64,000 nucleotides of DNA, taken from contig CAVOHC010000004.1 in NCBI GenBank assembly GCA_963695645.1, forward strand, positions 150,948 to 214,947, in the 5' to 3' direction. Positions 1 through 35,992 of the stretch are shown piece by piece; position 1 is the first letter of the stretch; the number at the start of each line of letters is the position of its first letter. The position numbers and the translations under genes are program-made. Under the pieces are notes generated by a model. That model did no database searches and had not been told where the DNA came from. It saw only the letters and a program-made list of their open reading frames with translations. The DNA is from an uncultured Actinomycetota bacterium (GTDB lineage Bacteria > Actinomycetota > Actinomycetes > Streptosporangiales > Streptosporangiaceae).

Positions 1-2203
1 GCTTTCCCGCCGAATGATAGACGGACGCCAGGTTGCCCTTCGCGGTCAGCGTGTCACGGTGATCTGGGCCCTGGGTCCGCTCCCGGTCGGCGATGGTCTG
101 CTGGTAGAGGGCGATCGCTTCCTTGAACCGCCGTGCGGCGTGGCAGGCGGATGCCAGGTTAGCGCGCGAGGTCATGGTGTCCGGGTGATCGCGGCCTAGC
201 ACGAGCTCCCGGTCCGCGAGGGCGCGCTTGTATATCGGGATCGCGTCCTTCAGCCGGTCCGCCGAGCGGTAGGCGTAGGCGACGCCGGCGCGCGAGGCGA
301 TGGTGTCCGGATGATCCGCGCCAAGCACGCGCTCCCGGTCGGCGAGGGTGCGCTCGTAGAGCGTTATCGCTTCTGGCAGCCGGCCTGCCGACTGGAGCGC
401 GGCGGCCAGGTCGCCACGGGCGGTGAACGTTTTCGGATGGTCCAGCCCGAGCGCCAGCTCCCGGTCGGCGAGGGTGCGCTCGAAGACGTTGATCGCGTCG
501 GACAGGCGGCCGGCTGACCGGTACGCGGCGGCCAGGTCGCTGCGTGCCGTCAGCGTGTCGGGATGGTCGGGGCCGAGCACCCATTCCCGCCCGGCTAGGG
601 TGCGCTCGTAGAGCGGGATCGCGTCCGACAGCCGGCCCGCGGCCAGGCACACGTGAGCGAGGTTGCTACGGGCCGTCAGCGTCTCCGGGTGGCCGGGACC
701 GAGGATCCGCTCTCGTTCGGCGAGGTTCTGCGCGTGCATCCCGATCGCCTCTTCCAGCCGGCCTGCGGTCTCGTAGGCGGCGGCGAGGTGGTCGTGGGTC
801 AGCAGGGTCTGGGCATGAACGGGACCGAGAATACGGCCGCTCGTGTCGGCCATCATCTGCCAGTAGCTGATGGCCGGCCCGGTGAGCCTGGCACCGTCCA
901 GGCTGCGCCCGGCCCGCAGCAGCACCGGATGGCCTTCTGGCTCCCACAGCAGTTCGGCGGCAGCCTGATGCAGGCTGGCTGTGCACTCTCGCAGGGCCTG
1001 GGCCAGCAGCGGGCTGGTCTCGCGCTGCGGCCACGCCTGGGCAAGCGCGTCAGCTGCGGCCTTGCTGGTTTGTGCAACCACCGCAGGCGGCAGGACCTGC
1101 CGGATCGTTGCCTGGACAAGGCGATGCATCCGGACGGTGTACGCGGAGCTGGCCGGGTCGATGGTCACCAGCGCCGAACGGGCAAGATTCTGCAGGGCGG
1201 CGCGGGCGCTAGCCTCGTCGGCCGCCGTCCCGGCGTGCTGCCGCCCGGTGATGTAGTCGCATGCGGCCCGGCTGGTCAGGACCGCGCCGGGGATGCCGCC
1301 AGAGCCGAGCACCGCGGTCAGCGCCAGGGCAGGGCGCGCCATCCCGGCCGGCGGCATCTGGTCGGCTTGATCGAGGGCCAGGGACCAGGCCGCGGCGGTG
1401 GTCATCCCGAAGCCGTCCGCCGCGCTGAGATTAATGCGCTGCTTCCGGTCAGCGAACTGGATCCGGTAATTCCGGCAGTCGGACCCGGATTCGGCGATCG
1501 TGTCCGCGGCCATGGTCAGCGCCAGCGGAAGGCACGCGAGATCCTCGACCAGATCAAGGGCCTCGATCCGCTGGTGGGGATCGTCGTACAGTTTCGCGGT
1601 CAGGTAGCCCAGCGCTTCGCGGCGGCTGAAGGCTCCGACCTGAAGGATCTTCCGGCCAGGAGCGCGCATCGACGCAGCCTGCAGCCGAGTGGTGATCAGC
1701 ACCCTTCCGGCAGCGCCCTGCGGCCACAGCCCCGCAAGGTCGGCCGGGTCGGCCAGATCATCGAGGACGACCAGCCACGGCCGGCTGGTCTCGGCCAGCC
1801 AGGTCAGGAACCTGGCCGCCACGGCGTCCTGAGCGTCTCCCCGGTCGCCAGCGCCGATCCCGGCGAGCGCCTCGGCGTAGCCAGTCATGATGGCGTCCCG
1901 GCTTACTGCCGGCACCCAGACCAGCAGGTCCGTGGCTTCGGCCTGCCAGACGGAGTGCGCGAACGCGACGGCCAGCTGCGTCTTTCCGGTGCCGCCCGCG
2001 CTGGCCAGCGACTGCCCGTCGATCACCTCGGGGCGGGTGAGCACGGCCGTCTCGCCCGCTGCGAGGTTGCTTATCGTGCCTAACCCGGTCTCCGGCCGCG
2101 GGGTGTAGCAGGCGGCCGGCGGCGGCACCGTGCCCGACTGCAGCGGCCAGCTGCCCGAAGTCGGCGCCTCGCCAGCCCATCTGTTGCTGATTTGGCTGCT
2201 CAT
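1..2203 (-). CDS. STAND NTPase with a short N-terminal region, NB-ARC and TPR repeats (3' end runs off the window start)
   Basis: Absent from the ORF track because no stop codon lies inside the window. My reverse-strand translation from the ATG at 2203-2201 reads MSSQISNRWAGEAPTSGSWPLQSG...VIDGQSLASAGGTGKTQLAVAFAH (Walker A near 1981-1996), then RPWLVVLDDLADP (Walker B) and GRVLITTR. From about 900 down to 1 there are repeated ~42-aa units such as DHPDTLTARSDLAAAYRSAGRLSDAINVFERTLADRELALG (TPR_10/12-like). The Walker A, a mid-gene check (ALDQADQMPP at ~1350-1380) and the TPR units are all in one frame. The + ORF 653..2083 is its antisense shadow. Confidence 0.85.
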   Translation of the reverse strand, partial: MSSQISNRWAGEAPTSGSWPLQSGTVPPPAACYTPRPETGLGTISNLAAGETAVLTRPEVIDGQSLASAGGTGKTQLAVAFAHSVWQAEATDLLVWVPAVSRDAIMTGYAEALAGIGAGDRGDAQDAVAARFLTWLAETSRPWLVVLDDLADPADLAGLWPQGAAGRVLITTRLQAASMRAPGRKILQVGAFSRREALGYLTAKLYDDPHQRIEALDLVEDLACLPLALTMAADTIAESGSDCRNYRIQFADRKQRINLSAADGFGMTTAAAWSLALDQADQMPPAGMARPALALTAVLGSGGIPGAVLTSRAACDYITGRQHAGTAADEASARAALQNLARSALVTIDPASSAYTVRMHRLVQATIRQVLPPAVVAQTSKAAADALAQAWPQRETSPLLAQALRECTASLHQAAAELLWEPEGHPVLLRAGRSLDGARLTGPAISYWQMMADTSGRILGPVHAQTLLTHDHLAAAYETAGRLEEAIGMHAQNLAERERILGPGHPETLTARSNLAHVCLAAGRLSDAIPLYERTLAGREWVLGPDHPDTLTARSDLAAAYRSAGRLSDAINVFERTLADRELALGLDHPKTFTARGDLAAALQSAGRLPEAITLYERTLADRERVLGADHPDTIASRAGVAYAYRSADRLKDAIPIYKRALADRELVLGRDHPDTMTSRANLASACHAARRFKEAIALYQQTIADRERTQGPDHRDTLTAKGNLASVYHSAGK

Positions 2204-18609: not shown

Positions 18610-18628
18610 CCCTAATCTGACAGCGATT

Positions 18629-21844: not shown

Positions 21845-22046
21845 TGGCCGAGTCTAAGGCCCGCTCGTGACAGACTCCGGATATGAGGCAGGCGTTCTGG
21901 CGCCAACCGCGCTGCGGCAGTGCGGACCGATCGCCTGCCGGGCACGGCGGCAGTCCTATCCGCTCGGGCGCCGCTCACCGTGGCGGTTCTGGCTCTCGCA
22001 TCAGAGGAATCGTCGCTAGCCTCGCCCGCGGCAGCGCGCGGTCTGC

Positions 22047-22832
22047 TTGAGTCATGTGGTGAACCCGGCCGAGATCATCGCGCTCGCCGGGACTGGCGTC
22101 CTAGCCGGCGTGGCCAGCACAGTCGCGAGCCTCGCGTCGGTTGTCTCCTATCCGGTGCTGCTGGCGTTCGGGCTGCCGCCGGTCAGTGCGAACGTGACGA
22201 ACACGGTGGCGCTGGTATTCACTGGGGTCGGCGCCGCTTCCGGGTCGCGACAAGAACTGGCGGGCCAGGCCGCGCGGGTGCGGCGACTCGGCATGGTGAC
22301 GGCGGCGGGCGGGGCGGCGGGCGCGGCGCTGCTGCTCTTGTCCCCCGCGATGGCATTCCAGCTGGTCGCGCCTTGCCTCATCGGGGGTGCTTCGCTCCTG
22401 CTGCTCGTCCAGCCGATGATCACTGGCCTCACGGCTCGGCCAGACGGTGAGCGCAGCCCGATGCTGCGGGCAGCGCTGTTTGCCGTGGCGGGCTACGTCG
22501 GCTACTTCGGGGCGGCCGGCGGCATTCTTGCCCTCACTGTGCTCACCGCGATGATTGATATGCCGCTAGCCAGGATCAACGCGCTGAAAAACGTGGTCTC
22601 AGGGCTTGCGAACGCCGCGGCAAGCGTGGCATTCGCCTTGTTCGGCCCGGTTCAGTGGGCCGTCGCGGCACCGCTCGCCGCAGGCTTCCTGCTCGGCGGG
22701 TGGATCGGCCCGGCGCTGGTCCGCAGGCTACCTGCGCGAGCCCTGCGCGTGGTCATCGGCACGTGCGGCCTGGCCCTCGCGGCCACCCTCGGTGCCAGGA
22801 CCTACCGATTAGCCGGCCGCCCGGCGTCCTGA
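22047..22832 (+). CDS. TauE/SafE (DUF81) family anion exporter
   Basis: 261 aa with about 7-8 transmembrane helices. GVLAGVASTVASLASVVSYPVLLAFGLPPVSANVTNTV is typical. The TTG at 22047 is the start used by the track; in-frame GTG codons at 22056/22059 are alternatives. Confidence 0.8.
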   Translation: MSHVVNPAEIIALAGTGVLAGVASTVASLASVVSYPVLLAFGLPPVSANVTNTVALVFTGVGAASGSRQELAGQAARVRRLGMVTAAGGAAGAALLLLSPAMAFQLVAPCLIGGASLLLLVQPMITGLTARPDGERSPMLRAALFAVAGYVGYFGAAGGILALTVLTAMIDMPLARINALKNVVSGLANAAASVAFALFGPVQWAVAAPLAAGFLLGGWIGPALVRRLPARALRVVIGTCGLALAATLGARTYRLAGRPAS

Positions 22833-22839
22833 TCGACCG

Positions 22840-24675: not shown

Positions 24676-24829
24676 AGGGCCGAGAGGCTACCAGCGGCAG
24701 CCCCGGTAGCGGTCACGCCACGGGCTCAGGGCCGCACTCTCATACTGCCAGCCGGATACCGGCCATCTCTGACCGGGCGGCGTCGTTACGGGCTGTGGCA
24801 GCGCCCTGCCTAGCCCCTGGTGCACGTCG

Positions 24830-27337
24830 TCATATGTCGGCTGCCGGATCCGTGCTCCTGGTGTAGCTGCGCCGGAACTGGTTGTCAGTGACGGGCCAGC
24901 GCTCTCCGCGGCGCCCTTCCACGACCCAGTCCCCGCGCCGAGCGATCGCCCGCCCCTCCATCGTCCGGAGGACGAGAAGGTCGCTGGCCTGCCATGCGCG
25001 GAAGGTGCCCGTGCGGCGCCAGACTTCGCCGCCGAGCGGCTCGTGACTTTGGCGGAACTCCCGGTCGCGGACCGTGCGCTCATCGCCGGAGTCATCGACG
25101 ACTCGCCAGTCTCCGACATCGCCATGCAGTTCGTCACCGGACAGGCGGGTCCACGGCCGCCGGGCATGCAGCCGTCTCGCCTGGACCGTACCGACGCGGC
25201 GAAAGTCAGCCGCATCGGCTGGCCCGCCTGGCGGCACGATGGGCACGAAGCCGACGTCCTCTAGCTGTGCGAGCTGCGACCGCAGGTAATTGACGCTTCT
25301 CGTGCGCTCGTCAGCTGGAAGATCAGCCCAGGGCACCGCTCTGCTGTTCACGAGCGCATTCCCCATCTTTCCAGCGCTCGACCGGCCAACGCCGCTGCCT
25401 GCGGACCAGCCGGCCGCCAGCCGCCGCTGGTACCAGCGGGTGTGCTCCACGCTGGCGACCTGTTCCACGTCGCGATCGGTCAGCTCGATGAAGCTACCGG
25501 GCGGCACTGCACGGGCCGGGACCCATTCACGCCCGCGGGCTACCACCGCCGTCATCACCGAGCGGACCTGAAGGATGTTGTCCTGGCGGATGAACTCATC
25601 CAGGTCAGCCCACGGGCGTCCGGTGAAGGTCCTCGGCTCACCAGGCACAGCGGGGTGCCTCATCCGGTAACACTCGTGCCAGTGCCGTGCCACCCTTGTC
25701 CACGTGTCCTCGGGCTCCTCGCCGTTTACCATGAAGGTCCGCTGAAAAGGCTGCAACCGGTCGAAGATCGCGCCGTTCGTGGCCGCCCCGTCGGACGTGA
25801 GCATGTACAAGGCAATACCCGGGTGCAGTCGTGCCACCCGCCCTGCCTCGTGCATGCTGGCGTCTGTGCAGGCGTCCGCGACGACAACAGCCGCCTGGGC
25901 TGCCTCGGCCGGGGGCATGGTATCCAGCGTGGCGAGAAGGTGCTCCCGCCACGGACTTGGCTCGGCGTGCACCTGCGGCGCCGCTGCGGCGACGGAATGC
26001 GGGGACGTCGCCTGGTACTCACGCCGCAGGTCTTCCGCCCGCCGGTCCAGGAGCACCACGCGCTGCACCGGATGCGGGGCCAGGGCCTGCCGGTCGGTCT
26101 CATCCAGGCAGGCGGCATCCGGGTGCGCGGCGCGGCCGATGGACGCGGCTTGGGAAAGCTCCCGCCACTCCCAGGCGCGACGGGCAAGCTCCAGGAGGAT
26201 GGCAAGCGCCAACGTACTGTCGCCGCACAAAAGCAGGTGCCGGGCCCCGGCGGAGAAGATCTGATTAACCAGAGCGCACGCGGTCGACTCCAGCGGGCTG
26301 AGCGCGTCCTCAAGCGACCAGCCGGAGTTGCCGCTGTGCCGGCCGCGCCAGTGATCAGCATGCCTGGGGTCATCGATGCGAGCGACCAGGTGCGGCTGCC
26401 GCTCAGGGTCGGGCGGATACCGGTGCAGTACGCCGTTGGCTGCCGTCAGGATTGCGTCGTTCTCCGCAGCGTCTTGGCGCAGCGCGTATAGCTGGCGCAA
26501 GGCGCATCCGCGGCGGCCGGCCAGCACCGGGAGCAGGACTCTGGGGGAGGCCGGGTCACCGATCATGACCCGTGCGCCGGTGGCGCGGGCCTCGTCAAGC
26601 AGGGGGTGGCCGCTGTCCGGCTCGATGACCACGATGCTGCTCCGGCGGCGAGTCTGCGCTAGGCGCTGCAGCAGGGGCACCGTTAATGTATCCAATCCGG
26701 TGAGGACGGTCGCGTCCGCCACCATCCGGGCCCGCAGGCGTCCCAGCGGCTCCCGCCACAGCACCGTCGCCACCGTCAGCGCTCCCACCAGTGTCGCCGC
26801 CAGGCTGATGGCGCCCCCGAACTGCAAGGCCAGCGGTGGCGCTCCCTGGCACCCGCCATACGGGTACGGAGGCGGATTTCCGACATACAGGTCGAGCATC
26901 CAGCCGGCTACCGCGCCTTCAGTCTGCCCACCCCGGCACGGGGTCAGCGCTGAGCAGGTGAGCGCGCCTCCGATCACGACCATCACCGCGACCGTGGTCA
27001 GCCCTACCGCCGCATGCTGCTGGAGTCGGCGCGGCCACCAGTAACACAGCAGCGCCACCAGCCACGCCCCGGCCAGTGCCAGCGGCGCCTGGACGCTTCC
27101 CGGCCGCAGCCAGGCCCGCCACCAGGCCTGCGTCAGATACAGCCATCGGCTGTCTGCAGCGGAGACCCAGGCTCCCCAGGCGAGGTAGCCGGTAATAGCA
27201 GCACCGAGGACCGCCGGCGGCACCCACGCGGCCCGCCGAGTAAAGCGGAGCCTGGCGAGGCGAGTCCTTATCACGGCCTCCCCATCCACCGGCCCGTGAT
27301 ACCAATCAGTAACGTGCTTTCTAGCGGAAGCAGCCAA
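24830..27337 (-). CDS. Multi-pass membrane protein with a Rossmann-like central region, two RyR-like repeats and a small C-terminal beta domain
   Basis: 835 aa with N-terminal hydrophobic helices. IVVIEPDSGHPLLDEARATGARVMIGDP is TrkA-N-like. The RyR-like repeats are WTRVARHWHECYRMRHP...RPWADLDEFIRQDNI and VASVEHTRWYQRRLAAGWS...VPWADLPADERTRSVNYLRSQL. The C-terminal ARRGDWVVEGRRGERWPVTDNQFRRSY is PGDYG-like. The track start is TTG, so the start is uncertain. Confidence 0.5.
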   Translation of the reverse strand: MAASARKHVTDWYHGPVDGEAVIRTRLARLRFTRRAAWVPPAVLGAAITGYLAWGAWVSAADSRWLYLTQAWWRAWLRPGSVQAPLALAGAWLVALLCYWWPRRLQQHAAVGLTTVAVMVVIGGALTCSALTPCRGGQTEGAVAGWMLDLYVGNPPPYPYGGCQGAPPLALQFGGAISLAATLVGALTVATVLWREPLGRLRARMVADATVLTGLDTLTVPLLQRLAQTRRRSSIVVIEPDSGHPLLDEARATGARVMIGDPASPRVLLPVLAGRRGCALRQLYALRQDAAENDAILTAANGVLHRYPPDPERQPHLVARIDDPRHADHWRGRHSGNSGWSLEDALSPLESTACALVNQIFSAGARHLLLCGDSTLALAILLELARRAWEWRELSQAASIGRAAHPDAACLDETDRQALAPHPVQRVVLLDRRAEDLRREYQATSPHSVAAAAPQVHAEPSPWREHLLATLDTMPPAEAAQAAVVVADACTDASMHEAGRVARLHPGIALYMLTSDGAATNGAIFDRLQPFQRTFMVNGEEPEDTWTRVARHWHECYRMRHPAVPGEPRTFTGRPWADLDEFIRQDNILQVRSVMTAVVARGREWVPARAVPPGSFIELTDRDVEQVASVEHTRWYQRRLAAGWSAGSGVGRSSAGKMGNALVNSRAVPWADLPADERTRSVNYLRSQLAQLEDVGFVPIVPPGGPADAADFRRVGTVQARRLHARRPWTRLSGDELHGDVGDWRVVDDSGDERTVRDREFRQSHEPLGGEVWRRTGTFRAWQASDLLVLRTMEGRAIARRGDWVVEGRRGERWPVTDNQFRRSYTRSTDPAADI

Positions 27338-27669: not shown

Positions 27670-27760
27670 TTCGGGGAACCGGACAAAGTTGCAAAAACTG
27701 TCTATACAGACGCACCACATGGGTGGTGCCGGAGCCTTGGGCGAGATTGGCTGGCACGTT

Positions 27761-27940
27761 ATGCATATCACCGAGGACATCAGCAGGACGGTTCCGTCTA
27801 AACTGGCAGATCTCCGGGATGTGCCGCTGGCGGAGATGCCGACCCTGAGCGCGGTGACCCTTGATGAGGCGTTTGACGGTATTATGCCGGGCTCGAAGGC
27901 AGTTCCGGTGCCGGTCATGGCATTCGCCTCCGCCATCTAA
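27761..27940 (+). CDS. fxsA: FxSxx-COOH RiPP precursor peptide
   Basis: MHITEDISRTVPSKLADLRDVPLAEMPTLSAVTLDEAFDGIMPGSKAVPVPVMAFASAI-stop ends in F-A-S-A-I and lies 15 nt upstream of the radical SAM gene. G/C third-position bias becomes clear only from 27761. In-frame alternative starts are ATG 27719 and TTG 27689. Confidence 0.8.
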   Translation: MHITEDISRTVPSKLADLRDVPLAEMPTLSAVTLDEAFDGIMPGSKAVPVPVMAFASAI

Positions 27941-27955
27941 GCCTGCGGGCCTGAC

Positions 27956-30484
27956 ATGAGCAGGCCGTCCGTTCCGCTCAGCCACTCCGTCGCGCCTGGC
28001 CCGCTCAGCCAGTTCGTCCTCAAGGTACACAGTCGGTGCGATCTCGCCTGTGATCATTGCTACGTCTACGAGGCCGCCGACCAGAGCTGGCGTGGCCGCC
28101 CCATGGCCATTTCCGACGAGGTGATCTCGCGGACGGCGCAACGCATCGCTGAACATGCCGCTTCACACGCCCTCGGCACCGTGCAGGTGGTGCTGCACGG
28201 TGGGGAGCCCCTGCTCGCCGGCCCGGCCCGGCTGCGGCGGGTGGTCACGGAGCTTCATGCGGCGCTCCGCGCCGTATGCCGCCTTGACCTGAGGATCCAC
28301 ACCAACGGTGTGCTGCTCAACGAGGATTTCTGCGAACTGTTCGCCGAGCATGCTGTCAAGGTCGGTATCTCCATCGATGGTGACCGGGTCGCCAATGACC
28401 GGCACCGCAGATACGCAGACGGGCGCAGCAGTTACGACCAGGCGATCCGTGCTATCGGGTTGCTGCGCGCCGACCGTTTCCGGGATCTGTATGCCGGACT
28501 GCTATGCACAATCGACATCGCAAACGACCCGCTGGCGGTCTATCAGTCTTTAATGGACTTGCGCCCGCCCCGGGTCGACTTTCTCCTGCCGCACGCGACA
28601 TGGGATCATCCGCCGTTGCGCGGGCTTGCCGCAGACAGCGAGTACGCTGACTGGCTGATTGCGATTTTCGACCGCTGGCTTGCGGAGGGACGCCCGGCCC
28701 CGATCCGCACCTTCGATTCAATCATCTCCACAATGCGGGGCGGTGAAAGCTTTACTGAGGCACTAGGCCTCGGGCCAACCGGGCTTATCGTCATCGAAAC
28801 TGACGGCAGCTACGAACAAGTCGACTCGCTGAAAGCGGCGTTTGACGGCGCGCCGGATACCGGGATGAACGTCTTCGACCATGCCCTCGATGTTGTTTCT
28901 CGCCACCCTGGTATTCTTGCTCGTCAGCAAGGAATTTCCGGCCTATGCCAGACGTGCCAGAAATGCCCAGTAGTTACCAGCTGTGGTGGTGGCCTTTACA
29001 CCCACAGGCACCGGGCAGGTAACGGCTTCGCCAATCCATCGGTGTACTGCTCCGACCTGCTGAAGCTTATTTCCCATATCAGCAGCCGGCTGTGTGAGGT
29101 GCCCCCGGACGCACCGGGAATCCCGACTCACTCGATAGGCGGCCCGGAATTCCGGGCCCTGGCAGCGGGCGTCGGCGACGGCGCGGCGGTGGCACAGCTC
29201 GCCGGGGCCCAGCGGAGCCTGCTTCGCGGCTTGCTCGGTGCGGTGTACCAGGAAGGAATTACCGGGGCCGCCGTTTCAGCGGCGGTCAAGACGGACCTGC
29301 GGCGCGCCTGGTCGTTGTTGACCACACTCGACCGTGAACGACCTAAAGCCCTGCAGACGGCGCTCGGGCATCCCTATATTCGCGCCTGGGCTATGCGCTG
29401 CCTCAAGCAGTTGCGGCCCGCCGCTGCCTGGCACGGCGACCAGGATCATGCAAGAAGGGTGCCAGGGCTGACCGCCGACCTGAGGCATCTCGGCGCCATC
29501 GCTGCCGCTGCTGCTATTCACGCTGGGACTAGCGGTACCGTCAGGATCCCTGTGCTGCATGGCGCCGTGCACCTGCCCACGCTGGGCCGCCTGGCAATCG
29601 GCCCGGAGCAAGCAATCGGCCCGGAGCAAGCAATCGGCCCGGAGCAAGCAATCGGCCCGGAGCAGGCTGCCCGGTCGCCCGCAGAAGTGCTCGAAACGGC
29701 GACCGTCGACGTTGCCGGCGGGGTGGTTGCTGTACGGCTCGGTGCCAGCCGCTGGACACTGGCCAGCAGCGACCTGCTCAGCGGCGCGGCGAGTCAGGGC
29801 GCCACGTCCGAGAGCGGCAGGCCCGCCAGCTGGGAGCCCGTACGCAGGCTCAGCGCACTTGGCATCTGCGTCGCGATGGAGGACACCGATCCCTACCGCG
29901 ACTGTCACCAATGGCGGCCGGCGGCACGGCTGACCGAAGCTGAGTTCGCCCAGTGGCAGCGGCAATTCCGGTATGCCTGGCGGGAAATCGAGCGTGCGCA
30001 TGGTGCCTACGCCCCGGCGCTTGCCGCAGGCCTAACGACGCTGATGCCCCTGGCCGCTGCCCAAGACGGTGGCGATCTCAGCGCCGCCGCCAGGGACGCG
30101 TTCGGCGCCGTCGCCATGGCACTACCTGCCGATCCGGTAACCCTCGCCTTGCTGCTCATCCACGAGTTCCAGCATGTGAAACTCGGTGCGGTGCTCGATC
30201 TCTACGAGCTTTTTGATCGCGCTGATGACCGTCTCTTCCACGCCCCGTGGCGCGAGGGCAAGCACCAGATCGAAGACCTCCTGCAAGGCACCTACGCGCA
30301 CCTGGCCGTCACTGACTTTTGGCGCGCACGCCAGCACATCGCGGCCGACCAGGCAGCGGGACGGCGATTCGTGCATTGGCGCGCTCGGACCCGCGATGCG
30401 ATCGAGATCCTGGCGACTTCTGGCTCGTTGACACCGCTTGGGGCGTGGTTCGTCGATGAAATGCGCCATTCGGCAGGGCCGTAG
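27956..30484 (+). CDS. fxsB: FxsB-type radical SAM/SPASM peptide maturase fused to a C-terminal HExxH domain
   Basis: The radical SAM motif is KVHSRCDLACDHCYVY (Cx3Cx2C at 28037-28060). The SPASM-like cysteines are CQTCQKCPVVTSCGGG...YCSDL. The C-terminal domain carries LLIHEFQHVKLG (HEFQH at 30161-30175). Confidence 0.9.
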   Translation: MSRPSVPLSHSVAPGPLSQFVLKVHSRCDLACDHCYVYEAADQSWRGRPMAISDEVISRTAQRIAEHAASHALGTVQVVLHGGEPLLAGPARLRRVVTELHAALRAVCRLDLRIHTNGVLLNEDFCELFAEHAVKVGISIDGDRVANDRHRRYADGRSSYDQAIRAIGLLRADRFRDLYAGLLCTIDIANDPLAVYQSLMDLRPPRVDFLLPHATWDHPPLRGLAADSEYADWLIAIFDRWLAEGRPAPIRTFDSIISTMRGGESFTEALGLGPTGLIVIETDGSYEQVDSLKAAFDGAPDTGMNVFDHALDVVSRHPGILARQQGISGLCQTCQKCPVVTSCGGGLYTHRHRAGNGFANPSVYCSDLLKLISHISSRLCEVPPDAPGIPTHSIGGPEFRALAAGVGDGAAVAQLAGAQRSLLRGLLGAVYQEGITGAAVSAAVKTDLRRAWSLLTTLDRERPKALQTALGHPYIRAWAMRCLKQLRPAAAWHGDQDHARRVPGLTADLRHLGAIAAAAAIHAGTSGTVRIPVLHGAVHLPTLGRLAIGPEQAIGPEQAIGPEQAIGPEQAARSPAEVLETATVDVAGGVVAVRLGASRWTLASSDLLSGAASQGATSESGRPASWEPVRRLSALGICVAMEDTDPYRDCHQWRPAARLTEAEFAQWQRQFRYAWREIERAHGAYAPALAAGLTTLMPLAAAQDGGDLSAAARDAFGAVAMALPADPVTLALLLIHEFQHVKLGAVLDLYELFDRADDRLFHAPWREGKHQIEDLLQGTYAHLAVTDFWRARQHIAADQAAGRRFVHWRARTRDAIEILATSGSLTPLGAWFVDEMRHSAGP
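29594..29665 (+). repeat. In-frame 18-bp tandem repeat, 4 copies, inside fxsB (encodes AIGPEQ x4)
   Basis: gcaatcggcccggagcaa occurs three times perfectly, followed by gcaatcggcccggagcag. The protein reads LAIGPEQAIGPEQAIGPEQAIGPEQAARSP. It lies between the SPASM region and the HExxH domain. Confidence 0.95.
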
Positions 30485-30767
30485 CAAGGGGTCAGCCCAG
30501 CATCAGCCACGACAGCTGACAGAGCGCCGCGATACCTGGCAGCCGCCACAGCTGGAGTCCCCGAAGCCGAGGTCTCGCTCTTCCCGGCGGTGCCTGATTG
30601 AGAGGTCACCGCGGCATGCGCCGCCACGGGATGGGACGCCGCCCCTGGTCACATACTAAGATCTCCTATATCATCATTTCGCCACGCCGCATTGGGCGAT
30701 AATTGGCCGCTGGCCGCACTGTAGTGGCTGCTGGGACTGGCGTGGCGTGACGGGGGGGAAGGCGCCA

Positions 30768-32057
30768 ATGGTTTCGGGGCGCGACGACAGGCCGTACTTC
30801 TTCCTAAGCTACGCACGGACGCCGAAACGAGATCCATCCGACCGTGATGATCCAGATCGCTGGGTCTACAAGCTATACAAAGACCTGTGCGGCGCCATCT
30901 TACAAATGACTGACGCCCGGCCCGAAGAAGCTGGATTCATGGACCGGGAGAACAAGCTCGGTACCGAATGGTCACCAGAACTGACGGCGGCACTCGCGAG
31001 ATGCCGGGTCTTCGTCCCGCTGTACTCCCGGCGGTATTTCGAAAGTGACAATTGCGGCAGAGAATGGTTTGCTTTCGCGCGCCGCGAAATCACTCACCGG
31101 GCTCGGGGCCGCCAGCTAGTTGACGCCATTGTGCCGGCGCTCTGGACGAGAATGGATCGGCAGAAGCTCCCCCATGTCGCGCAGTCCGTCCAGTTCGAAC
31201 ATGGCTTCCTCGGTGAACGCTACTGCACTGAGGGTTTCTATGGGATCATGAAGCTGCAGAATTATCGCGCCGATTATCAGCGCGCAGTGCACAGGCTCGC
31301 CGAGCGAATCATCGCGATTGGCGACGAGAGCGTCGCATTTACTGATGAAAACGTCGTTCCCGCGATGACGCAGGCGGATTTCGAGTCGCTGCCGAGCGCC
31401 TTTGGCCCGGCTAGCGCGCGCCGGACCGCAGATGGCCAGCTTCAGATCGCGGTGCTCGCGCATGACACCTCGACGCTGCCGCCGGGGAGGGCCCGCGACT
31501 ACTACGGCGCTACGCCGAGCACCTGGAGCCCGTACCGGCCGGATTACACCCAGCCGGTGGCCGACTACGCGCTGGAGCTGGCCAAGAAGTGCCTTGACTG
31601 CAAACCCCTGGTTGGAGCTTTTGACGACGCCATGGCGAATTGGGTCAGCAATGGGCACCCGGTGCCGCCGAGTTTGTGCCTCGTCGATGCCTGGGTGAGC
31701 GTATCGGCCGCGCATCAGGAACAGCTGAGCCGGCTGGAGCAGGTCGAGGAGTCCTGGGTCAGCGTGCTGGTTCCGTGGAACAGCCAGGATTCGGGGATGC
31801 ACGAGGCCAAAGATGATCTTCGCGAGAAACTCCATGAGCACTTGGGCCGTAAGCTTGCCGGCGTCCCGAGACGATGCCAGATGGCCGCGAACGGAATCCC
31901 CACTCTCTACGATTTCGGGCAGCTCCTGCCCGAGATGACAATGATCATGCTGAAGAGATTCCGCAAAGAAGCTACTGCCCATCCGCCCGCAGGTCCCTTC
32001 ATTGAGCGCCCGCGGCTGAGGAGATCCGAACTCCAGGATTCCGGAGATGCACGATGA
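30768..32057 (+). CDS. fxsC: TIR-like protein FxsC
   Basis: The ATG at 30768 (M8 of ORF 30747..32057) follows ggggggaagg. MVSGRDDRPYFFLSYARTPKRD...WVYKLYKDL...CRVFVPLYSRRYFESDNCGREWFAF shows the TIR-like beta-A FxxSY and SxxC..E motifs. The C-terminal ~300 aa are not assignable by eye. Confidence 0.85.
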   Translation: MVSGRDDRPYFFLSYARTPKRDPSDRDDPDRWVYKLYKDLCGAILQMTDARPEEAGFMDRENKLGTEWSPELTAALARCRVFVPLYSRRYFESDNCGREWFAFARREITHRARGRQLVDAIVPALWTRMDRQKLPHVAQSVQFEHGFLGERYCTEGFYGIMKLQNYRADYQRAVHRLAERIIAIGDESVAFTDENVVPAMTQADFESLPSAFGPASARRTADGQLQIAVLAHDTSTLPPGRARDYYGATPSTWSPYRPDYTQPVADYALELAKKCLDCKPLVGAFDDAMANWVSNGHPVPPSLCLVDAWVSVSAAHQEQLSRLEQVEESWVSVLVPWNSQDSGMHEAKDDLREKLHEHLGRKLAGVPRRCQMAANGIPTLYDFGQLLPEMTMIMLKRFRKEATAHPPAGPFIERPRLRRSELQDSGDAR

Positions 32058-35000
32058 GCGACCCGAGCCGGGGCCAGATCATTACGTTCTACTCTTACAA
32101 GGGCGGTACCGGCCGTACGATGGCACTCGCCAATGTCGCGTGGATTCTCGCGAGCAACGGCAACCGGGTCCTTGCCGTTGACTGGGATTTGGAATCACCC
32201 GGACTGCACAAGTTCTTTCATCCTTTCCTAGACGAATCAACTGTGAGCGCCACGCCTGGCGTGATAGAAATAATCAATGATTATGCGTCCGCCGCTGTTG
32301 ATCCGGGAGCGCGCGACGATGATTGGCATCTGGAATACGCGCGCGTCGATCGTGATGCGGTATCTCTGGAATGGGCCTTCCCCCATGGCGGCAAACTGGA
32401 CTTTCTCTCGGCCGGCCGCCAGAACCGTGACTATTCTGCCGCCGTCTGCTCCCTTGACTGGGATAACTTCTACGACCGGCTCGGCGGCGGGCGTTTCTTT
32501 CGCGCGATGCGAGATGACATGAAGCAGAAATACGACTACGTACTGATAGACAGCCGTACCGGGCTGAGCGACGTGGCGGACATCTGCACGATCGAGCTCC
32601 CGGACGTCTTAGCGATCTGCTTCACGCTCAGTGATCAGAGCATCGAGGGCGCAGCCAACGTCGCCCGCCAGATCAGCGGACGGTACCGGGATCGAAATAT
32701 CCGGGTACTGCCCGTGCCGATGCGCATCGAGGACGGCGAGAAAGAGAAGCTTGACATCGGGCGTGCCCTGGCCCGGATGAAGTTCGAGGGCTTCCCGACA
32801 GGCATGACCCAGGAGAACTCGGCGCTGTACTGGGCGTCGGTCGAAGTGCCCTACAAGCCCTTCTATGCCTTCGAGGAGACCCTGGCGACCTTCGGTGACG
32901 ACCCAGGTTCGCCAGCGTCGCTGCTGTCCTCATTCGAGCGGATTACGAACTCGCTCACCGAGGGACGGGTGACGGCGATGCAGCCGATCGCCGAGAACCT
33001 GCGGCTGCAGTACAAGGAGGCTTTTGCCCGGCGACAGCCTGCAGCTTCCACGCAGGTCTACCTGAGCTACGTGCCGGAGGACCGCATGTGGGCCGACTGG
33101 ATCGAGGCGGTGCTGACGCGCGCCGGCTTCCGCGTGCTGCCGCGTAGCACGGTGACGACGGCGGCCGCGGGCAGTGCCGAGGTCCGGGGCAGCATCCAGG
33201 CGGAGCGCGAACTTCAGGCTGCTCCCCGGGCCATCGCCGTGCTTTCTTCCGCTTACCTGCATTCGCCCGACGCCCGATCCATCTGGAAGACCTTGTCGTC
33301 GGCCGATGCTGCCGACACGCATCGTCAGCTGGTGCCGGTCAGGGTGAGCGAAGTAAGGATCATCGAGCCGTTCACCGAGCATCCCGCCGTGGACCTGGCG
33401 CGCATGGATGCGGCCCAGGCGACCGCGAAGCTGCTGTGGGCTCTGGACCGGCCTGTTCCTCCGCTCGGCAGCACGGGAACCCAAGCCGAGGAGCCCCGGT
33501 TCCCCGGCACGATCCCGCCGATATGGAACGTCCCGGCCAGGAATGCCGACTTCACCGGGCGCGGCGCGACGCTTGAACTGCTGCGCGACAAACTCGCCGG
33601 GGGCGGCCTGGCGGTCGTCGTCGCGCAGGCGCTGTATGGGCTGGGCGGCGTCGGCAAGACCCAGCTCGCGCTGGAGTACGCGCACCGCTTCATGGCCGAC
33701 TATGACCTGGTCTGGTGGGTGCCGTCCGAGCGGGCCGAGGAGACCAGCGGGGCGCTCGCCGAGCTGGCCCGCAAGATGGGTCTGAAGGTCGGCGACAATG
33801 TGGCCGAGGCAGCGGAGGCTGCCCTGGAGGAGCTGCGCCGCGATTCCACGCCGCACTGGCTGCTGATCTTCGACAATGCCGACGACCCCAAGCAGCTCGA
33901 GCCGTACCTGCCCACCGGCTCGGGCCATGTCCTCATCACCTCGAGAAATCAGGCGTGGTCGCACTCCGCTGAGCCTCTCGAGGTGGATGTCTTCACGATG
34001 GACGAGAGTGTGGCGCACCTGCTCCGGCACGTGCCTGAACTGGACATGGCCGACGCGAAGCGAGTCGCCGACGCCCTGGGGCACCTGCCGCTGGCCGTCG
34101 AGCAGGCCAGCGCGTGGCTAGAGCAGACCGGGATGCCCGCGCGGGCCTACGTCGAGCAGCTGGCGACGCAGTCCACCCGGATCCTGGCGCTGAACCAGCC
34201 GCCGGACTACCCGATGCCGGTAGTGGCCACCTGGAACCTGTCCTTCGACCAGCTCAAAGGGCGATCGCCGGCCGCGGTGCGGCTGCTGCAGCTGTGCGCA
34301 TTCTTCTCGCCAGGGCCGATCTCCATGGACTTGCTCTACAGCGACGAGATGAACGAGTCCTTGCTGCCCTTTGACGAGACGCTGAGCGAGAAGCTGATGC
34401 TCGGCCGGGTGATCAGGGATATCAGCCGCTTCGCTTTGATCAAGGTGGACCAGGGCAGCAACTCGCTGCAGATCCACCGGCTGGTCCAGGCCGTGATCCG
34501 CTCCCAGATGAGCGACGAGGCGCAGGCCGACGCGCGGCATGAGGTACATAAGATCCTGGTCGGCGCCCGGCCCCGCCAGGGGGAGACAGACGACCCGGCG
34601 AACTGGTCCACCTATGACATCATCTGGCCGCATCTCGGTCCTTCGCAGGCTGACGAGTGCGACGATCCGCGCACCCGGCAGCTGCTCATCGACTGGGTGC
34701 GCTACCAGTGGAAGCACGGCGAGTTCGAATCTGGCCTGAGCCTGGCGAGGCGCCTGGAGAACCTGTGGATCCACCAGCTCGGGCCTGACCATCAGCAGAC
34801 GCTGCACCTGCAATTCCAGATCGCCAACGTGCTGCGTTCCCAGGGCCGCTTCAAGGACGCCCGCGACCTGGACACCTATGTCCTGGAGCGGCAGCGAGCC
34901 GTACTCGGGGTAGACCATCCGCACGCGCTGATCACCGCGAACGGGCTGGGGGCTGATCTGCGTGCGCTCGGCGACTTCCAGGACGCACTGGCCTCGGACC

Positions 35001-35992
35001 GGGAGACCTATGAGAGCTTTAAGGAGCAGTTCGGCGCGGATTACCCGCGGACATTGATCGCTGCCCATAACCTGGCGAGCTCGCTGCGGCTGGTCGGTGA
35101 CTGCTTCGCGGCGCGCCGCCTCGACGAGGAGACGCTGGACTGTCAACGGCAGGTGCTGGGCAGCGACCATCCCTATACCCTCTTGTCGGCGGCCAGCCTG
35201 GCTCACGATATGCGCGCGGCAGGCGCCTTCCGGGACTCCGTCGACCTGCTGCGCTACACATGGGAGAAATACCGGGCGGTGCTTGGCGACGACATGCTCG
35301 ACACCTTGCGGACCGCCACCAGCCTGGCCGTGTCGCTGCGCAAGGCCGGGGAGCAGTCCGAGGCGATGAATCTCGCGCAGGACACCTACGAGCGTTACAA
35401 GCGCCGCTACGGCAGCGACGCGCCAGATGCCCAATCGTGCGCGCTCAACCTGGCCTGCGACTACGCGGCGGTCGATGACATGCCCAGGGCACTGGAGCTG
35501 GTGACGGGCGTCAAGGCCGCGCTCCAGGCCAGCCTGGGCGACGAGCATCCGAACACGTTGGTCGCCGCCAACAACCTGGCGTGCTACCTGCGGGCCATTG
35601 GCCGGCTCCCGGAGGCGCTTGCGCTGACGGATGACACGCTAGGCAGGACGCAGCCACGGCTCGGAAGCCGCCACCCGCTAACCCTGTGCTGCGCAGTCAA
35701 CCTGGCTAACTGCCGCGGGGACTGCGGGGACCTCGAAGCGGCCGAAGCGCTCGAGCGCCAGGCGATTGCGCTACTGCGGGAGGTGCTCGGCCGGGACCAC
35801 CCGGACACCCTGGTCGGCGAGGCCAATCTCGCTGTCACCCTGCGCCAGGCAGGGCGGGAGAAGGATGCCGAGGAACTCAGGGCACGGATCTTCGCTGACT
35901 TCAGCCGCGTGCTGGGCGCAGGTCACCCGGACGTCGCGCAACTACACAAATGGCAGCGGATCAACCGCGATCTGGAACCGCAGCAAATCTAA
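32054..35992 (+). CDS. fxsT: FxSxx-COOH-system STAND protein: ParA/MinD-like ATPase, TIR, NB-ARC and TPR
   Basis: Its ATGA overlaps the fxsC stop. Domain motifs: (1) IITFYSYKGGTGRTMALANVAWILA...VLAVDWDLESPGL...YVLIDSRTGLSD, a deviant Walker A at 32099-32119; (2) QVYLSYVPEDRMWADWIEAVLTRAGFRV, TIR-like from ~33053; (3) GLGGVGKTQLALEYAH (33638-33661), WLLIFDNADD and HVLITSRN, NB-ARC; (4) many DHPxTLxxxxNLAxxLRxxG units up to the C-terminus, TPR. Confidence 0.88.
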   Translation: MSDPSRGQIITFYSYKGGTGRTMALANVAWILASNGNRVLAVDWDLESPGLHKFFHPFLDESTVSATPGVIEIINDYASAAVDPGARDDDWHLEYARVDRDAVSLEWAFPHGGKLDFLSAGRQNRDYSAAVCSLDWDNFYDRLGGGRFFRAMRDDMKQKYDYVLIDSRTGLSDVADICTIELPDVLAICFTLSDQSIEGAANVARQISGRYRDRNIRVLPVPMRIEDGEKEKLDIGRALARMKFEGFPTGMTQENSALYWASVEVPYKPFYAFEETLATFGDDPGSPASLLSSFERITNSLTEGRVTAMQPIAENLRLQYKEAFARRQPAASTQVYLSYVPEDRMWADWIEAVLTRAGFRVLPRSTVTTAAAGSAEVRGSIQAERELQAAPRAIAVLSSAYLHSPDARSIWKTLSSADAADTHRQLVPVRVSEVRIIEPFTEHPAVDLARMDAAQATAKLLWALDRPVPPLGSTGTQAEEPRFPGTIPPIWNVPARNADFTGRGATLELLRDKLAGGGLAVVVAQALYGLGGVGKTQLALEYAHRFMADYDLVWWVPSERAEETSGALAELARKMGLKVGDNVAEAAEAALEELRRDSTPHWLLIFDNADDPKQLEPYLPTGSGHVLITSRNQAWSHSAEPLEVDVFTMDESVAHLLRHVPELDMADAKRVADALGHLPLAVEQASAWLEQTGMPARAYVEQLATQSTRILALNQPPDYPMPVVATWNLSFDQLKGRSPAAVRLLQLCAFFSPGPISMDLLYSDEMNESLLPFDETLSEKLMLGRVIRDISRFALIKVDQGSNSLQIHRLVQAVIRSQMSDEAQADARHEVHKILVGARPRQGETDDPANWSTYDIIWPHLGPSQADECDDPRTRQLLIDWVRYQWKHGEFESGLSLARRLENLWIHQLGPDHQQTLHLQFQIANVLRSQGRFKDARDLDTYVLERQRAVLGVDHPHALITANGLGADLRALGDFQDALASDRETYESFKEQFGADYPRTLIAAHNLASSLRLVGDCFAARRLDEETLDCQRQVLGSDHPYTLLSAASLAHDMRAAGAFRDSVDLLRYTWEKYRAVLGDDMLDTLRTATSLAVSLRKAGEQSEAMNLAQDTYERYKRRYGSDAPDAQSCALNLACDYAAVDDMPRALELVTGVKAALQASLGDEHPNTLVAANNLACYLRAIGRLPEALALTDDTLGRTQPRLGSRHPLTLCCAVNLANCRGDCGDLEAAEALERQAIALLREVLGRDHPDTLVGEANLAVTLRQAGREKDAEELRARIFADFSRVLGAGHPDVAQLHKWQRINRDLEPQQI

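What the first reader, a model, noticed from the sequence alone, without database searches (positions are those of the whole stretch)
32054..35992. Four-module FxsT (ParA/MinD-like, TIR, NB-ARC, TPR) with a compositional break inside one ORF
A single 1312-aa ORF joins four modules: a KGGTGRT deviant-Walker-A ATPase (about aa 8-300), a TIR-like domain (about 334-455), NB-ARC (P-loop at aa 529-536) and about 400 aa of TPR. Two different P-loop NTPase switches in one STAND protein is unusual.

By hand count the 5' region is 47-60% GC (32221-32340), whereas the TPR region is about 72% (35401-35460). This suggests that the N-terminal module was fused onto a resident-type NB-ARC/TPR scaffold. The effector-less paralogue at 1-2203 is an example of such a scaffold.
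Basis: partly seen in the sequence, partly recalled or inferred. Interest (0 to 1): 0.7.

Follow-up and report, generated by a model that had tools for sequence, protein, structure and literature searches.

The report
Ordinary FxsT receptor of Fxs operon
The 1312-residue gene is real and has the four modules described. It is the standard, already described receptor-like last gene of a peptide-modification (FxSxx-COOH) operon common in actinobacteria, and its low-GC start is a regional feature of the operon rather than the scar of a recent gene fusion.

Summary
The ORF 32054-35992 (+) is intact and has four modules: a ParA/MinD-fold variant P-loop (KGGTGRT), a TIR domain, an NB-ARC domain and a TPR array. 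It is FxsT, the last gene of a complete fxsA-B-C-T operon (27761-35992).

The architecture is not unusual. In 78 of 78 informative FxsC-anchored loci from other actinobacterial species (Streptosporangiaceae MAGs, Sphaerisporangium, Streptomyces, Actinacidiphila), the same four modules lie downstream of fxsC, in 71 of them as one ORF. The ATPase module is the best-conserved part and co-evolves with the rest (r = 0.98). Kaur et al. 2020 already described this fusion, and NCBIfam has named models for both halves.

However, the low-GC3 zone begins in fxsB, covers fxsC and ends near codon 150, inside the ATPase module. Relatives share it. The composition therefore does not indicate a fusion.

My inference from conserved residues is as follows. 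The ATPase keeps every ParA motif except an invariant Walker-A Lys-to-Arg change. The FxsT TIR has no conserved catalytic Glu, whereas the TIR-like domain of FxsC keeps an invariant one. This suggests that a peptide-sensing NLR recruits FxsC.

The parts
27761..27940 (+). fxsA, the precursor peptide. It ends ...VPVPVMAFASAI-COOH, which is the FxSxx-COOH motif. The start codon is uncertain: the ORF opens at TTG 27689, and ATG codons occur at 27719 and 27761.
   Evidence: An equivalent small ORF ending F-x-S-[AS]-[ILV]* lies just upstream of fxsB in 75 of 78 related loci.
27956..30484 (+). fxsB. It encodes a cyclophane-forming radical SAM/SPASM maturase (aa 17-376) fused to an aKG-HExxH beta-hydroxylase domain (aa 673-836).
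   Evidence: TIGR04269 scores 571 bits (cut-off 370) and TIGR04267 scores 145 bits (cut-off 40). The chemistry of such fused enzymes is taken from Morishita et al. 2024 as summarised in PMC12636437.
30747..32057 (+). fxsC. It has a TIR-like N-terminal domain with an invariant CG[RK]EW glutamate (E106) and a C-terminal alpha/beta domain of unknown fold family.
   Evidence: NF040588 scores 211 bits and TIGR04276 scores 126 bits. E106 is invariant in 77 sequences. The AF2 model matches plant NLR TIR domains in Foldseek with probability about 0.99, and the C-terminal domain has no PDB match. The CGREW segment aligns to L6 TIR CLMEL (weak E-value).
32054..35992 (+). fxsT, a single 1312-aa ORF that is translationally coupled to fxsC (ATGA overlap, GGAG 6 nt upstream).
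32075..33034 (+). FxsT module 1 (aa 8-327), a ParA/MinD-fold variant P-loop domain. The signature Lys K16 is kept and the Walker-A Lys is replaced by R21 (YSYKGGTGRT). Switch I is VDWDLE and Walker B is LIDSRTG. A family-specific C-terminal subdomain follows.
   Evidence: NF047398 scores 146 bits. The AF2 model has pLDDT 90. The best Foldseek PDB matches are Soj, MinD, ParA and McdA, with TM 0.68-0.78. The best sequence match is MinD 1g3q, SGKGGTGKT against SYKGGTGRT. 122 of 327 columns are invariant in 71 orthologues.
33056..33433 (+). FxsT module 2 (aa 335-460), a TIR domain. No Glu is conserved in helix alpha-C; positions 409-412 vary and the window has I410 and K412.
   Evidence: Pfam TIR_2 scores 55.9 bits. 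Only 9 of 127 columns are invariant, and the column counts are. The secondary structure comes from the AF2 model.
33530..34543 (+). FxsT module 3 (aa 493-830), an NB-ARC/AP-ATPase STAND core with DUF7779. The motifs are P-loop GLGGVGKT 529-536, Walker B LLIFDNADD 603-611, LITSRN 627-632, GHLPLAV 676-682 and IHRLVQ 807-812.
34544..35989 (+). FxsT module 4 (aa 831-1312), a TPR_10/TPR_12 array that is the presumed ligand sensor.
28550..32500 (+). Low-GC3 zone (about 0.52-0.83 in 50- and 100-codon windows, lowest in the middle of fxsB, in fxsC codons 1-200 and in fxsT codons 1-150). It runs from the middle of fxsB through fxsC to about codon 150 of fxsT.
2..2203 (-). NB-ARC/TPR paralogue without an N-terminal effector. 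Its C-terminus is cut by the window edge and it is 27% identical to the FxsT core.

Best explanation
Shown: this is the canonical FxsT of a standalone FxSxx-COOH system (fxsA-fxsB-fxsC-fxsT) in a Streptosporangiaceae-like actinobacterium. The arrangement of ParA/MinD-like variant P-loop, TIR, NB-ARC and TPR is the inherited, conserved architecture of this orthologous group. It is not a recent or lineage-specific fusion. The low GC at the 5' end is part of a 4-5 kb low-GC3 zone over the front of the operon. Relatives share this zone, and it ends inside the ATPase module.

Inferred mechanism (about 0.3 for the chain as a whole):
1. FxsB cross-links (cyclophane) and beta-hydroxylates the C-terminal FxSxx motif of FxsA.
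2. The FxsT TPR array senses the modified C-terminal peptide, or its absence or processing.
3. The NB-ARC module exchanges nucleotide and oligomerises.
4. The N-terminal variant P-loop domain has every ParA/MinD motif intact except an invariant Walker-A Lys-to-Arg change. It acts as a slow or non-hydrolysing nucleotide-dependent dimerisation or thresholding module.
5. The FxsT TIR has no conserved catalytic Glu. It acts as an adaptor that nucleates the TIR-like domain of FxsC, which keeps an invariant Glu. FxsC then consumes NAD+ or makes a nucleotide signal, leading to growth arrest, cell death or developmental signalling.
For: Identity.
- The family models score far above their cut-offs.
- The operon is complete, including an FxsA that ends in FASAI.

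Conservation of the architecture.
- At least 571 FxsC loci were found in species-representative genomes. Of the 80 kept plus locus L001, 71 have one ORF with all four modules, 7 have all four modules with frameshifts in long-read MAGs, and 3 are cut by contig ends.
- 47 of the 143 closest cluster representatives carry all four modules.
- The modules co-evolve, with r = 0.955-0.982.

Prior description. Kaur et al. [quoted passage not shown]

Composition.

Clues to mechanism.
- YSYKGGTGRT, VDWDLE and IDSRTGLSD are invariant or nearly so in 71 orthologues.
- The ATPase module has a Soj/MinD fold.
- The alpha-C helix of the FxsT TIR has no conserved Glu.
- FxsC E106 is invariant and aligns to the CLMEL Glu of the L6 TIR.
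- The FxsC N-terminal domain resembles plant NLR TIR domains.
- The genes are translationally coupled.
Against: - Only the 80 best of at least 571 FxsC loci were inspected. More distant Fxs systems, such as the VMAP-associated ones of Kaur et al., reportedly have a TIR-AP-ATPase without the ParA-like domain, so 'canonical' holds for the standalone clade only.
- The absence of a catalytic Glu in the FxsT TIR rests on motif register and predicted secondary structure. I made no residue-level structural superposition.
- Profile-profile comparison of the two TIR domains was uninformative.
- No experiment on any Fxs system was found in the searchable literature, so ligand, output and biological role are all inference.
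- The cause of the low-GC3 zone is unexplained.
Confidence: 0.85

Rival explanations
1. The ParA-like (and TIR) module was recently fused onto a resident NB-ARC/TPR scaffold such as the paralogue at the window start, and the GC drop is the unameliorated signature of the foreign piece.
For: - GC and GC3 are genuinely lower in the first 150 codons.
- An effector-less NB-ARC/TPR paralogue exists in the window.
- ATPase-only, ATPase+TIR and ATPase+NB-ARC+TPR variants exist elsewhere, so this module is evolutionarily mobile on long time scales.
Against: - The break lies at codon ~150 inside the module, and the low zone continues upstream over fxsC and fxsB.
- The identical architecture occurs in 78 of 78 informative loci across several genera.
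- The modules co-evolve with r = 0.98.
- The paralogue is only 27% identical to the FxsT core.
- Streptomyces orthologues with the same fusion show almost no dip.
Confidence: 0.03
2. The low-GC3 zone reflects DNA-level history that is independent of protein architecture. Either the front of the operon (fxsA to the 5' end of fxsT) was replaced by homologous recombination from a lower-GC relative in the ancestor of this clade, or the whole operon arrived by transfer and is unevenly ameliorated.
For: - The zone is strongest in the Streptosporangiaceae-MAG clade (difference -0.083) and in the window itself (about -0.19). It is weak in Streptomyces (-0.013).
- Synonymous third-position identity to relatives is lower in codons 1-150 (0.46-0.62) than elsewhere (0.54-0.76).
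Against: - Protein-level module identities show no mosaic outliers (residual sd 0.023).
- The same direction of gradient occurs in 70 of 70 loci (FxsC) and 56 of 70 loci (FxsT 5' end), including distant genera. This argues for a maintained property rather than a single event.
Confidence: 0.2
3. The GC3 dip is maintained by selection or by a local mutational regime. Possible causes are weaker mRNA structure or slower decoding around translationally coupled junctions, and effects on co-translational folding of the conserved TIR-like and P-loop domains.
For: - The gradient is family-wide in direction.
- The genes are translationally coupled.
- The lowest-GC3 segments coincide with the most conserved protein segments, namely the FxsC TIR-like domain and the N-terminal half of the FxsT P-loop domain.
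Against: - The effect is tiny in Streptomyces.
- No direct test was possible.
- TTA codons are not enriched: each fxs gene has one, at the background rate of 16 in 16,375 codons.
Confidence: 0.2
4. FxsT is a pathway regulator of the Fxs peptide rather than an immune or cell-death NLR. NB-ARC+TPR proteins such as AfsR regulate secondary metabolism, and a ParA-like domain could bind nucleoid DNA as an ATP-dimer.
For: - FxsT gives a weak hit to the AfsR model over the NB-ARC region (60.6 bits).
- The N-terminal module has a ParA/Soj fold.
- No hits to established defence systems were found. Only the candidate PDC-M28B matched.
Against: - FxsT has no SARP or HTH DNA-binding domain.
- Two TIR-type domains occur in the operon.
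- Sister architectures of the ATPase module carry TIR/SEFIR or CHAT domains, or WD40/TPR arrays with a partial STAND core. These are typical of conflict systems (Kaur et al. 2020).
Confidence: 0.12

Closest known systems
FxsT of standalone FxSxx-COOH peptide-processing systems (NCBIfam NF040586; described by Kaur, Burroughs, Iyer & Aravind 2020, eLife 9:e52696)
   Same: The operon is the same (FxsA FxSxx-COOH peptide, rSAM/SPASM-HExxH FxsB, FxsC), and so is the order MinD/ParA-like, TIR, AP-ATPase (NB-ARC), TPR. Identity is 87-94% per module to the nearest MAG orthologue (L002) and about 40-68% to Streptomyces orthologues.
   Different: Nothing architectural differs. This copy has a stronger 5' GC3 dip than its relatives, and K rather than E at TIR position 412. 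Kaur et al. called the ParA-like domain 'inactive'. Here all of its motifs except the Walker-A Lys are invariant, so 'variant' is a better word than 'degenerate'.
ParA/Soj/MinD deviant Walker-A ATPases (for example T. thermophilus Soj 1wcv, P. furiosus MinD 1g3q)
   Same: The fold matches (Foldseek TM 0.68-0.78). The signature Lys, the switch I DxD and the Walker B Asp are all present.
   Different: The Walker-A Lys is invariably Arg (KGGTGRT). The domain has a roughly 120-aa family-specific C-terminal subdomain and is fused to TIR/NB-ARC/TPR. It scores far below every ParA/MinD equivalog cut-off.
TIR-NB-ARC-TPR/LRR NLRs (plant TNLs and TNPs, bacterial STAND defence proteins such as Avs)
   Same: The logic is effector, STAND switch, repeat sensor, and the NB-ARC motifs are present.
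   Different: FxsT has an extra N-terminal P-loop module and a TIR without a conserved catalytic Glu. It is genetically coupled to a RiPP-type peptide-maturation cassette and to a second TIR-like protein (FxsC). It does not match any established defence-system model in PADLOC.
VMAP-ternary (vWA-MoxR) systems with an associated FxSxx peptide-processing module (Kaur et al. 2020)
   Same: They share the peptide, the rSAM/SPASM enzyme, the HExxH domain and a downstream TIR-AP-ATPase-TPR protein.
   Different: No vWA, MoxR or VMAP genes were found next to this operon. According to that paper, the VMAP-linked versions lack the MinD/ParA-like module.

Membership tests
FxsT (NF040586, FxSxx-COOH system TPR protein) | Full-length match to the equivalog model above its curated cut-off | tested here: met
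   The score is 1048 bits against a cut-off of 300. The match covers aa 493-1312 and profile positions 1-830 of 830.
FxsT (NF040586, FxSxx-COOH system TPR protein) | Encoded next to fxsA (FxSxx-COOH peptide), fxsB (rSAM/SPASM) and fxsC | tested here: met
   FxsA ends in FASAI*. FxsB matches TIGR04269 at 571 bits. FxsC matches NF040588 and TIGR04276. All are on the same strand, and fxsC and fxsT overlap by ATGA.
KGGVGR-motif variant AAA ATPase (NF047398) | Domain-model match above cut-off, with the KGG[VT]GR[ST] motif in place of the Walker A GK[ST] | tested here: met
   The score is 146 bits against a cut-off of 90. KGGTGRT lies at aa 16-22, and the Arg is invariant in 71 orthologues.
Canonical ParA/MinD ATPases | Deviant Walker A KGGxGK[ST] with the catalytic P-loop lysine, and a score above the equivalog cut-offs | tested here: not met
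   The P-loop Lys is replaced by Arg. The ParA_partition score is 37 bits (cut-off 180) and the minD_bact score is 25.6 bits (cut-off 213). The fold is nevertheless ParA/MinD, so the domain may work like one (dimerisation) without being a member.
Catalytic TIR NADases | TIR fold | tested here: met
   Pfam TIR_2 scores 55.9 bits against a cut-off of 28. The AF2 model shows a beta-alpha-beta TIR-like topology over aa 334-463 with pLDDT mostly 83-96.
Catalytic TIR NADases | Conserved catalytic glutamate in helix alpha-C | tested here: inconclusive
   No Glu is conserved at positions 405-418 in 71 orthologues. Position 410 is always hydrophobic, and position 412 is E in 26, K in 18, S in 6 and N in 6 sequences. 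The register was inferred from the motif and predicted helices only, with no residue-level superposition. By contrast, FxsC E106 is invariant.
STAND / NB-ARC (AP-ATPase) NTPases | P-loop, Walker B hhhhDD, GLPL-like and MHD-like motifs followed by a repeat sensor | tested here: met
   GLGGVGKT, LLIFDNADD, GHLPLAV and IHRLVQ are present and conserved. Pfam NB-ARC alone is just below its gathering score (21.8 against 23.5), but NF040586 covers the region.
VMAP-ternary (vWA-MoxR) conflict systems | Adjacent vWA, MoxR AAA+ and VMAP genes | tested here: not met
   The neighbouring genes scanned are RecQ, a ResIII/PbeA-like helicase, an 835-aa protein with no family match, an alpha/beta hydrolase and a formyltransferase-crotonase protein. 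This locus is therefore the standalone type.
Established anti-phage defence systems (PADLOC-DB 2.0) | Match of the system's proteins to a named defence-system model | tested here: not met
   Only the candidate family PDC-M28B matches, and only the ATPase part of FxsT (80 bits). FxsC has no hit, and FxsB gives generic rSAM hits to pVip.

The most novel reading that the evidence does not exclude
The Fxs operon may be a self-contained 'peptide plus NLR' signalling or suicide module of multicellular actinobacteria. In this reading, the FxsT TPR array reads the operon's own cyclophane-crosslinked, hydroxylated FxSxx-COOH peptide. FxsT uses two nucleotide checkpoints, a Lys-to-Arg ParA-like dimeriser and the NB-ARC module. 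It signals through a catalytically dead adaptor TIR that templates the active TIR-like enzyme FxsC. The same ParA-like module also appears to stand in for the STAND P-loop in WD40 and TPR proteins that keep only the C-terminal half of nSTAND1. That would make it an unrecognised alternative NLR switch.
Probability: 0.2. Interest if true: 0.7.

Novelty: already known. Interest (0 to 1): 0.2.

Why it matters
For this window the result is a clean annotation: a complete fxsABCT operon with an ordinary FxsT.

The broader point is that the Fxs system is very common. At least 571 loci occur among species-representative genomes, and the ATPase module has 2981 50%-identity clusters at E <= 1e-30. Yet no experimental study of the FxsC/FxsT part turned up in the searchable literature. 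It pairs RiPP-type peptide chemistry with an NLR-like receptor and two TIR-type domains.

The residue-level contrasts found here give concrete mutants for anyone who takes the system up. These contrasts are the invariant Arg in the Walker A motif, the FxsT TIR without a conserved Glu, and the invariant Glu of FxsC.

Tried and rejected
- Word-indexed homologue search with the ATPase module. The top 120 hits were all 210-570 aa, which at first suggested that close relatives have a separate ATPase(+TIR) gene. Inspection showed frameshifted tails, and the gene was split into three calls on a long-read metagenome contig (L001). I rejected this as an assembly and gene-calling artefact. The exhaustive representative search and the genome loci show the full-length fusion.\n- Forward-strand translation of 1-2400 for the 'paralogue' gave no ORF. 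The paralogue is on the minus strand.\n- hhalign of the FxsT TIR against the FxsC TIR-like domain was uninformative in both global and local modes.\n- phmmer of the FxsT TIR against PDB found no TIR hit.\n- Literature searches for FxsT, FxsC, KGGVGR and FxSxx returned almost only irrelevant acronyms. The relevant paper was found through a search on nSTAND, TIR, MinD, NB-ARC and 'conflict systems'.\n- TTA (bldA-type) codon enrichment in the fxs genes was checked. There is none above background.\n- A vWA-MoxR context was looked for and was absent.


Full report
**1. The observation**

ORF and modules.
- The ORF 32054..35992 (+) is one uninterrupted 1312-codon frame.
- NCBIfam NF047398 'KGGVGR-motif variant AAA ATPase' matches aa 8-207 (146 bits, cut-off 90).
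- Pfam TIR_2 matches aa 335-460 (55.9 bits, cut-off 28).
- NCBIfam NF040586 'FxSxx-COOH system tetratricopeptide repeat protein' matches aa 493-1312 end to end (1048 bits, cut-off 300). Within that span are NB-ARC (508-661), DUF7779 (736-822) and many TPR_10/TPR_12 repeats.

GC content.
- The three hand counts are exact at 46.7%, 60.0% and 71.7%. They are extreme 60-nt samples.
- Per module, GC is 60.3% (ATPase), 68.9% (TIR and linker), 67.9% (NB-ARC) and 66.9% (TPR).

Paralogue. The 'paralogue at 1-2203' is real. It lies on the minus strand, is cut by the window edge and lacks an N-terminal effector.

**2. The composition**

- Splitting GC by codon position shows two separate effects.
  - GC3 is low (0.62-0.63) only in about the first 150 codons. 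It is 0.81 or higher from codon 150 on, which is still inside the ATPase module.
  - The further rise in total GC at about codon 300 comes from GC1 and GC2, that is, from amino-acid content.
- The low-GC3 stretch does not begin at the fxsT start codon. fxsC has GC3 0.68-0.73 over its first 250 codons, and the middle of fxsB falls to 0.59-0.63.
- Over all likely genes of the window, 150-codon GC3 averages 0.834 (sd 0.074). Eight of the 15 lowest windows belong to fxsB, fxsC or the 5' end of fxsT. The zone is therefore real, but it is a property of the front of the operon, not of one protein module.
- In orthologous loci, FxsC GC3 is below the rest of FxsT in 70 of 70 cases. FxsT codons 1-150 are below the rest in 56 of 70 cases.
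- The mean drop is 0.083 in the 18 closest (Streptosporangiaceae-like MAG) loci and 0.013 in Streptomyces and other genera. In the window it is about 0.19.
I could not establish its cause.

**3. Context**

- Upstream lie three genes.
  - fxsB (27956-30484) has a radical SAM/SPASM domain (TIGR04269, 571 bits) and an aKG-HExxH domain (TIGR04267, 145 bits).
  - A small ORF ends ...MAFASAI-stop, which is an FxSxx-COOH precursor.
  - fxsC (30747-32057) has a TIR-like N-terminal domain (NF040588) and the FxsC C-terminal domain (TIGR04276).
- The fxsT ATG overlaps the fxsC stop codon (ATGA), and a GGAG lies 6 nt upstream.
- No vWA, MoxR or VMAP genes are nearby.

**4. How common the architecture is**

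- A scan of one genome per species, anchored on FxsC, found at least 571 loci. The best 80 were fetched.
- I mapped the four FxsT modules onto these 80 plus one locus obtained earlier.
  - 71 loci have all four modules in a single ORF of 1300-1366 aa directly after fxsC.
  - 7 have all four modules but with frame breaks, all in long-read MAG assemblies.
  - 3 are cut by contig ends.
  - No informative locus lacks a module.
- The organisms include Streptosporangiaceae MAGs, Sphaerisporangium, Actinacidiphila and many Streptomyces.
- The ATPase module is the most conserved part. It is 59-93% identical to the window, and 122 of 327 columns are invariant. The corresponding invariant counts are 9 of 127 for TIR, 75 of 338 for NB-ARC and 58 of 482 for TPR.
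- Pairwise identities of the modules correlate at r = 0.955-0.982, so the modules have evolved as one unit.
- The in-window paralogue is only 27% identical to the FxsT core. That is far less than the Streptomyces orthologues (49-63% in NB-ARC).
- An exhaustive HMMER search of 1.84 billion cluster representatives with the ATPase module gave 2981 clusters at E <= 1e-30. Of the 143 newly returned proteins among the 150 best, 47 have all four modules.
- The remaining representatives show the module at the N-terminus of other NLR-like proteins. These include WD40 or TPR arrays preceded by only the C-terminal half of nSTAND1, TIR/SEFIR, TIR-CHAT-AAA_16-TPR, a tandem ATPase and PAS-ATPase.
- A first, word-indexed search seemed to show only short (210-570 aa) relatives. 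These proved to be frameshifted or truncated gene calls.

**5. Literature**

- Kaur, Burroughs, Iyer and Aravind (eLife 2020, PMC7159879) describe FxSxx-type peptide-processing systems. These combine a rSAM-SPASM enzyme, an HExxH 'metallopeptidase', and a downstream AP-ATPase with an N-terminal TIR domain and C-terminal TPRs.
[quoted passage not shown] That is this protein.
- The HExxH domain has since been shown to be an aKG-dependent beta-hydroxylase that acts on a pre-installed cyclophane. This is from Morishita et al. 2024, as summarised in PMC12636437.
- I found no experimental work on FxsC or FxsT.

**6. Anatomy relevant to mechanism**

- The ATPase module.
  - The AF2 model of aa 1-480 is confident (pLDDT 90, pTM 0.80).
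  - Its first domain superposes on Soj, MinD, ParA, McdA and FlhG (TM 0.68-0.78).
  - The best sequence match in PDB is archaeal MinD, where SGKGGTGKT aligns with SYKGGTGRT. The signature lysine is kept, and the Walker-A lysine is arginine.
  - In 71 orthologues YSYKGGTGRT is essentially invariant (a single column falls just below 99%), and VDWDLE (switch I) and IDSRTGLSD (Walker B) are invariant or nearly so.
  - The domain is therefore under strong constraint. 'Variant' describes it better than 'decayed'.
- The FxsT TIR.
  - It is the least conserved module.
  - The predicted alpha-C helix (aa 405-418) has no conserved acidic residue where TIR NADases carry their catalytic Glu. Position 410 is always hydrophobic, and position 412 is E, K, S or N.
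- FxsC.
  - It has an invariant ...S.RYF.S..CG[RK]EW... motif in 77 sequences.
  - Its Glu aligns with the Glu of CLMEL in the flax L6 TIR (weak E-value of 0.4).
  - The N-terminal domain of its AF2 model resembles plant NLR TIR domains (RUN1, RPV1, RPP1, Roq1, L6; probability about 0.99, TM 0.42-0.47).
  - Its well-predicted C-terminal alpha/beta domain has no PDB neighbour.
- The NB-ARC motifs (P-loop, Walker B, GLPL-like, MHD-like IHR) are intact and conserved.
- FxsA tails are F-x-S-[AS]-[ILV]-COOH in 75 of 78 loci.

**7. Most likely mechanism (inference)**

1. FxsB modifies the FxsA C-terminus.
2. The TPR array of FxsT acts as the sensor of that C-terminal peptide. From general knowledge, TPR domains commonly clamp C-terminal peptides.
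3. The NB-ARC module drives oligomerisation.
4. The ParA-like Lys-to-Arg domain provides nucleotide-dependent dimerisation with little or no hydrolysis, and so acts as a second threshold.
5. The FxsT TIR, which lacks a conserved Glu, works as an adaptor for the FxsC TIR-like enzyme, which keeps its Glu.

I rate the identity and evolutionary conclusions at about 0.9 or higher, and this mechanistic chain at about 0.3.

**8. Verdict**

- The protein is an ordinary orthologue of a known, named and previously described architecture.
- The compositional argument for a fusion does not hold.
- Interest is low for this finding as such. The Fxs system as a whole remains an attractive, untested peptide-plus-NLR module.

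Noticed in passing
window 29594-29664 (+), inside fxsB: A perfect 18-nt tandem repeat (3.9 copies, 100% matches) encodes (AIGPEQ)x4. It lies in the linker between the rSAM/SPASM domain and the HExxH domain of FxsB. It looks like a recent slippage expansion.
   Followed up: partly
proteins P0353, P0363, P0285, P0299: In other proteins the same KGGVGR ParA-like module is followed directly by only the C-terminal third of the nSTAND1 model (profile positions about 260-379) and then by WD40 or TPR repeats. The ParA-like P-loop appears to replace the STAND P-loop domain. This may be an alternative NLR switch.
   Followed up: partly
L001 10001-13933; also L020, L023-L026, L066; proteins P0001-P0120: Long-read metagenome assemblies carry FxsT broken by frameshifts. 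Protein databases therefore hold many false 'standalone ATPase(+TIR)' entries of 210-570 aa with out-of-frame tails. This is a trap for architecture surveys.
   Followed up: yes
window 30747-32057, FxsC aa 231-410: The FxsC C-terminal domain (TIGR04276) is predicted with high confidence (pLDDT 86-96) as an alpha/beta domain. It has no significant structural neighbour in PDB.
   Followed up: partly
window 20000-27337 (-): Directly upstream of the fxs operon, on the opposite strand, lie three genes. They are RecQ (20000-21844), a ResIII/DEAD helicase that matches PADLOC PbeA models (22840-24675), and an 835-aa protein with no family match (24830-27337). This may be a defence-type neighbourhood.
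   Followed up: no
window 2-2203 (-): An NB-ARC/TPR protein passes the FxsT model cut-off (341 bits against 300). It has no N-terminal effector and no fxs neighbours; a luciferase-like monooxygenase gene is adjacent. The NF040586 equivalog model therefore also captures non-Fxs paralogues.
   Followed up: partly
window 15874-19092 (-): A 1072-aa protein carries choice-of-anchor D domains and gives a weak hit to the CefA Cys-every-fifth RiPP model (30.4 bits, at that model's 30-bit cut-off). Its first 150 codons also have low GC3 (0.62).
   Followed up: no
window 32054-35992 and PADLOC model PDC-M28B: The ATPase part of FxsT matches protein B of the phage-defence candidate system PDC-M28 (80 bits). 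Relatives of this module may already have been flagged as defence candidates.
   Followed up: no
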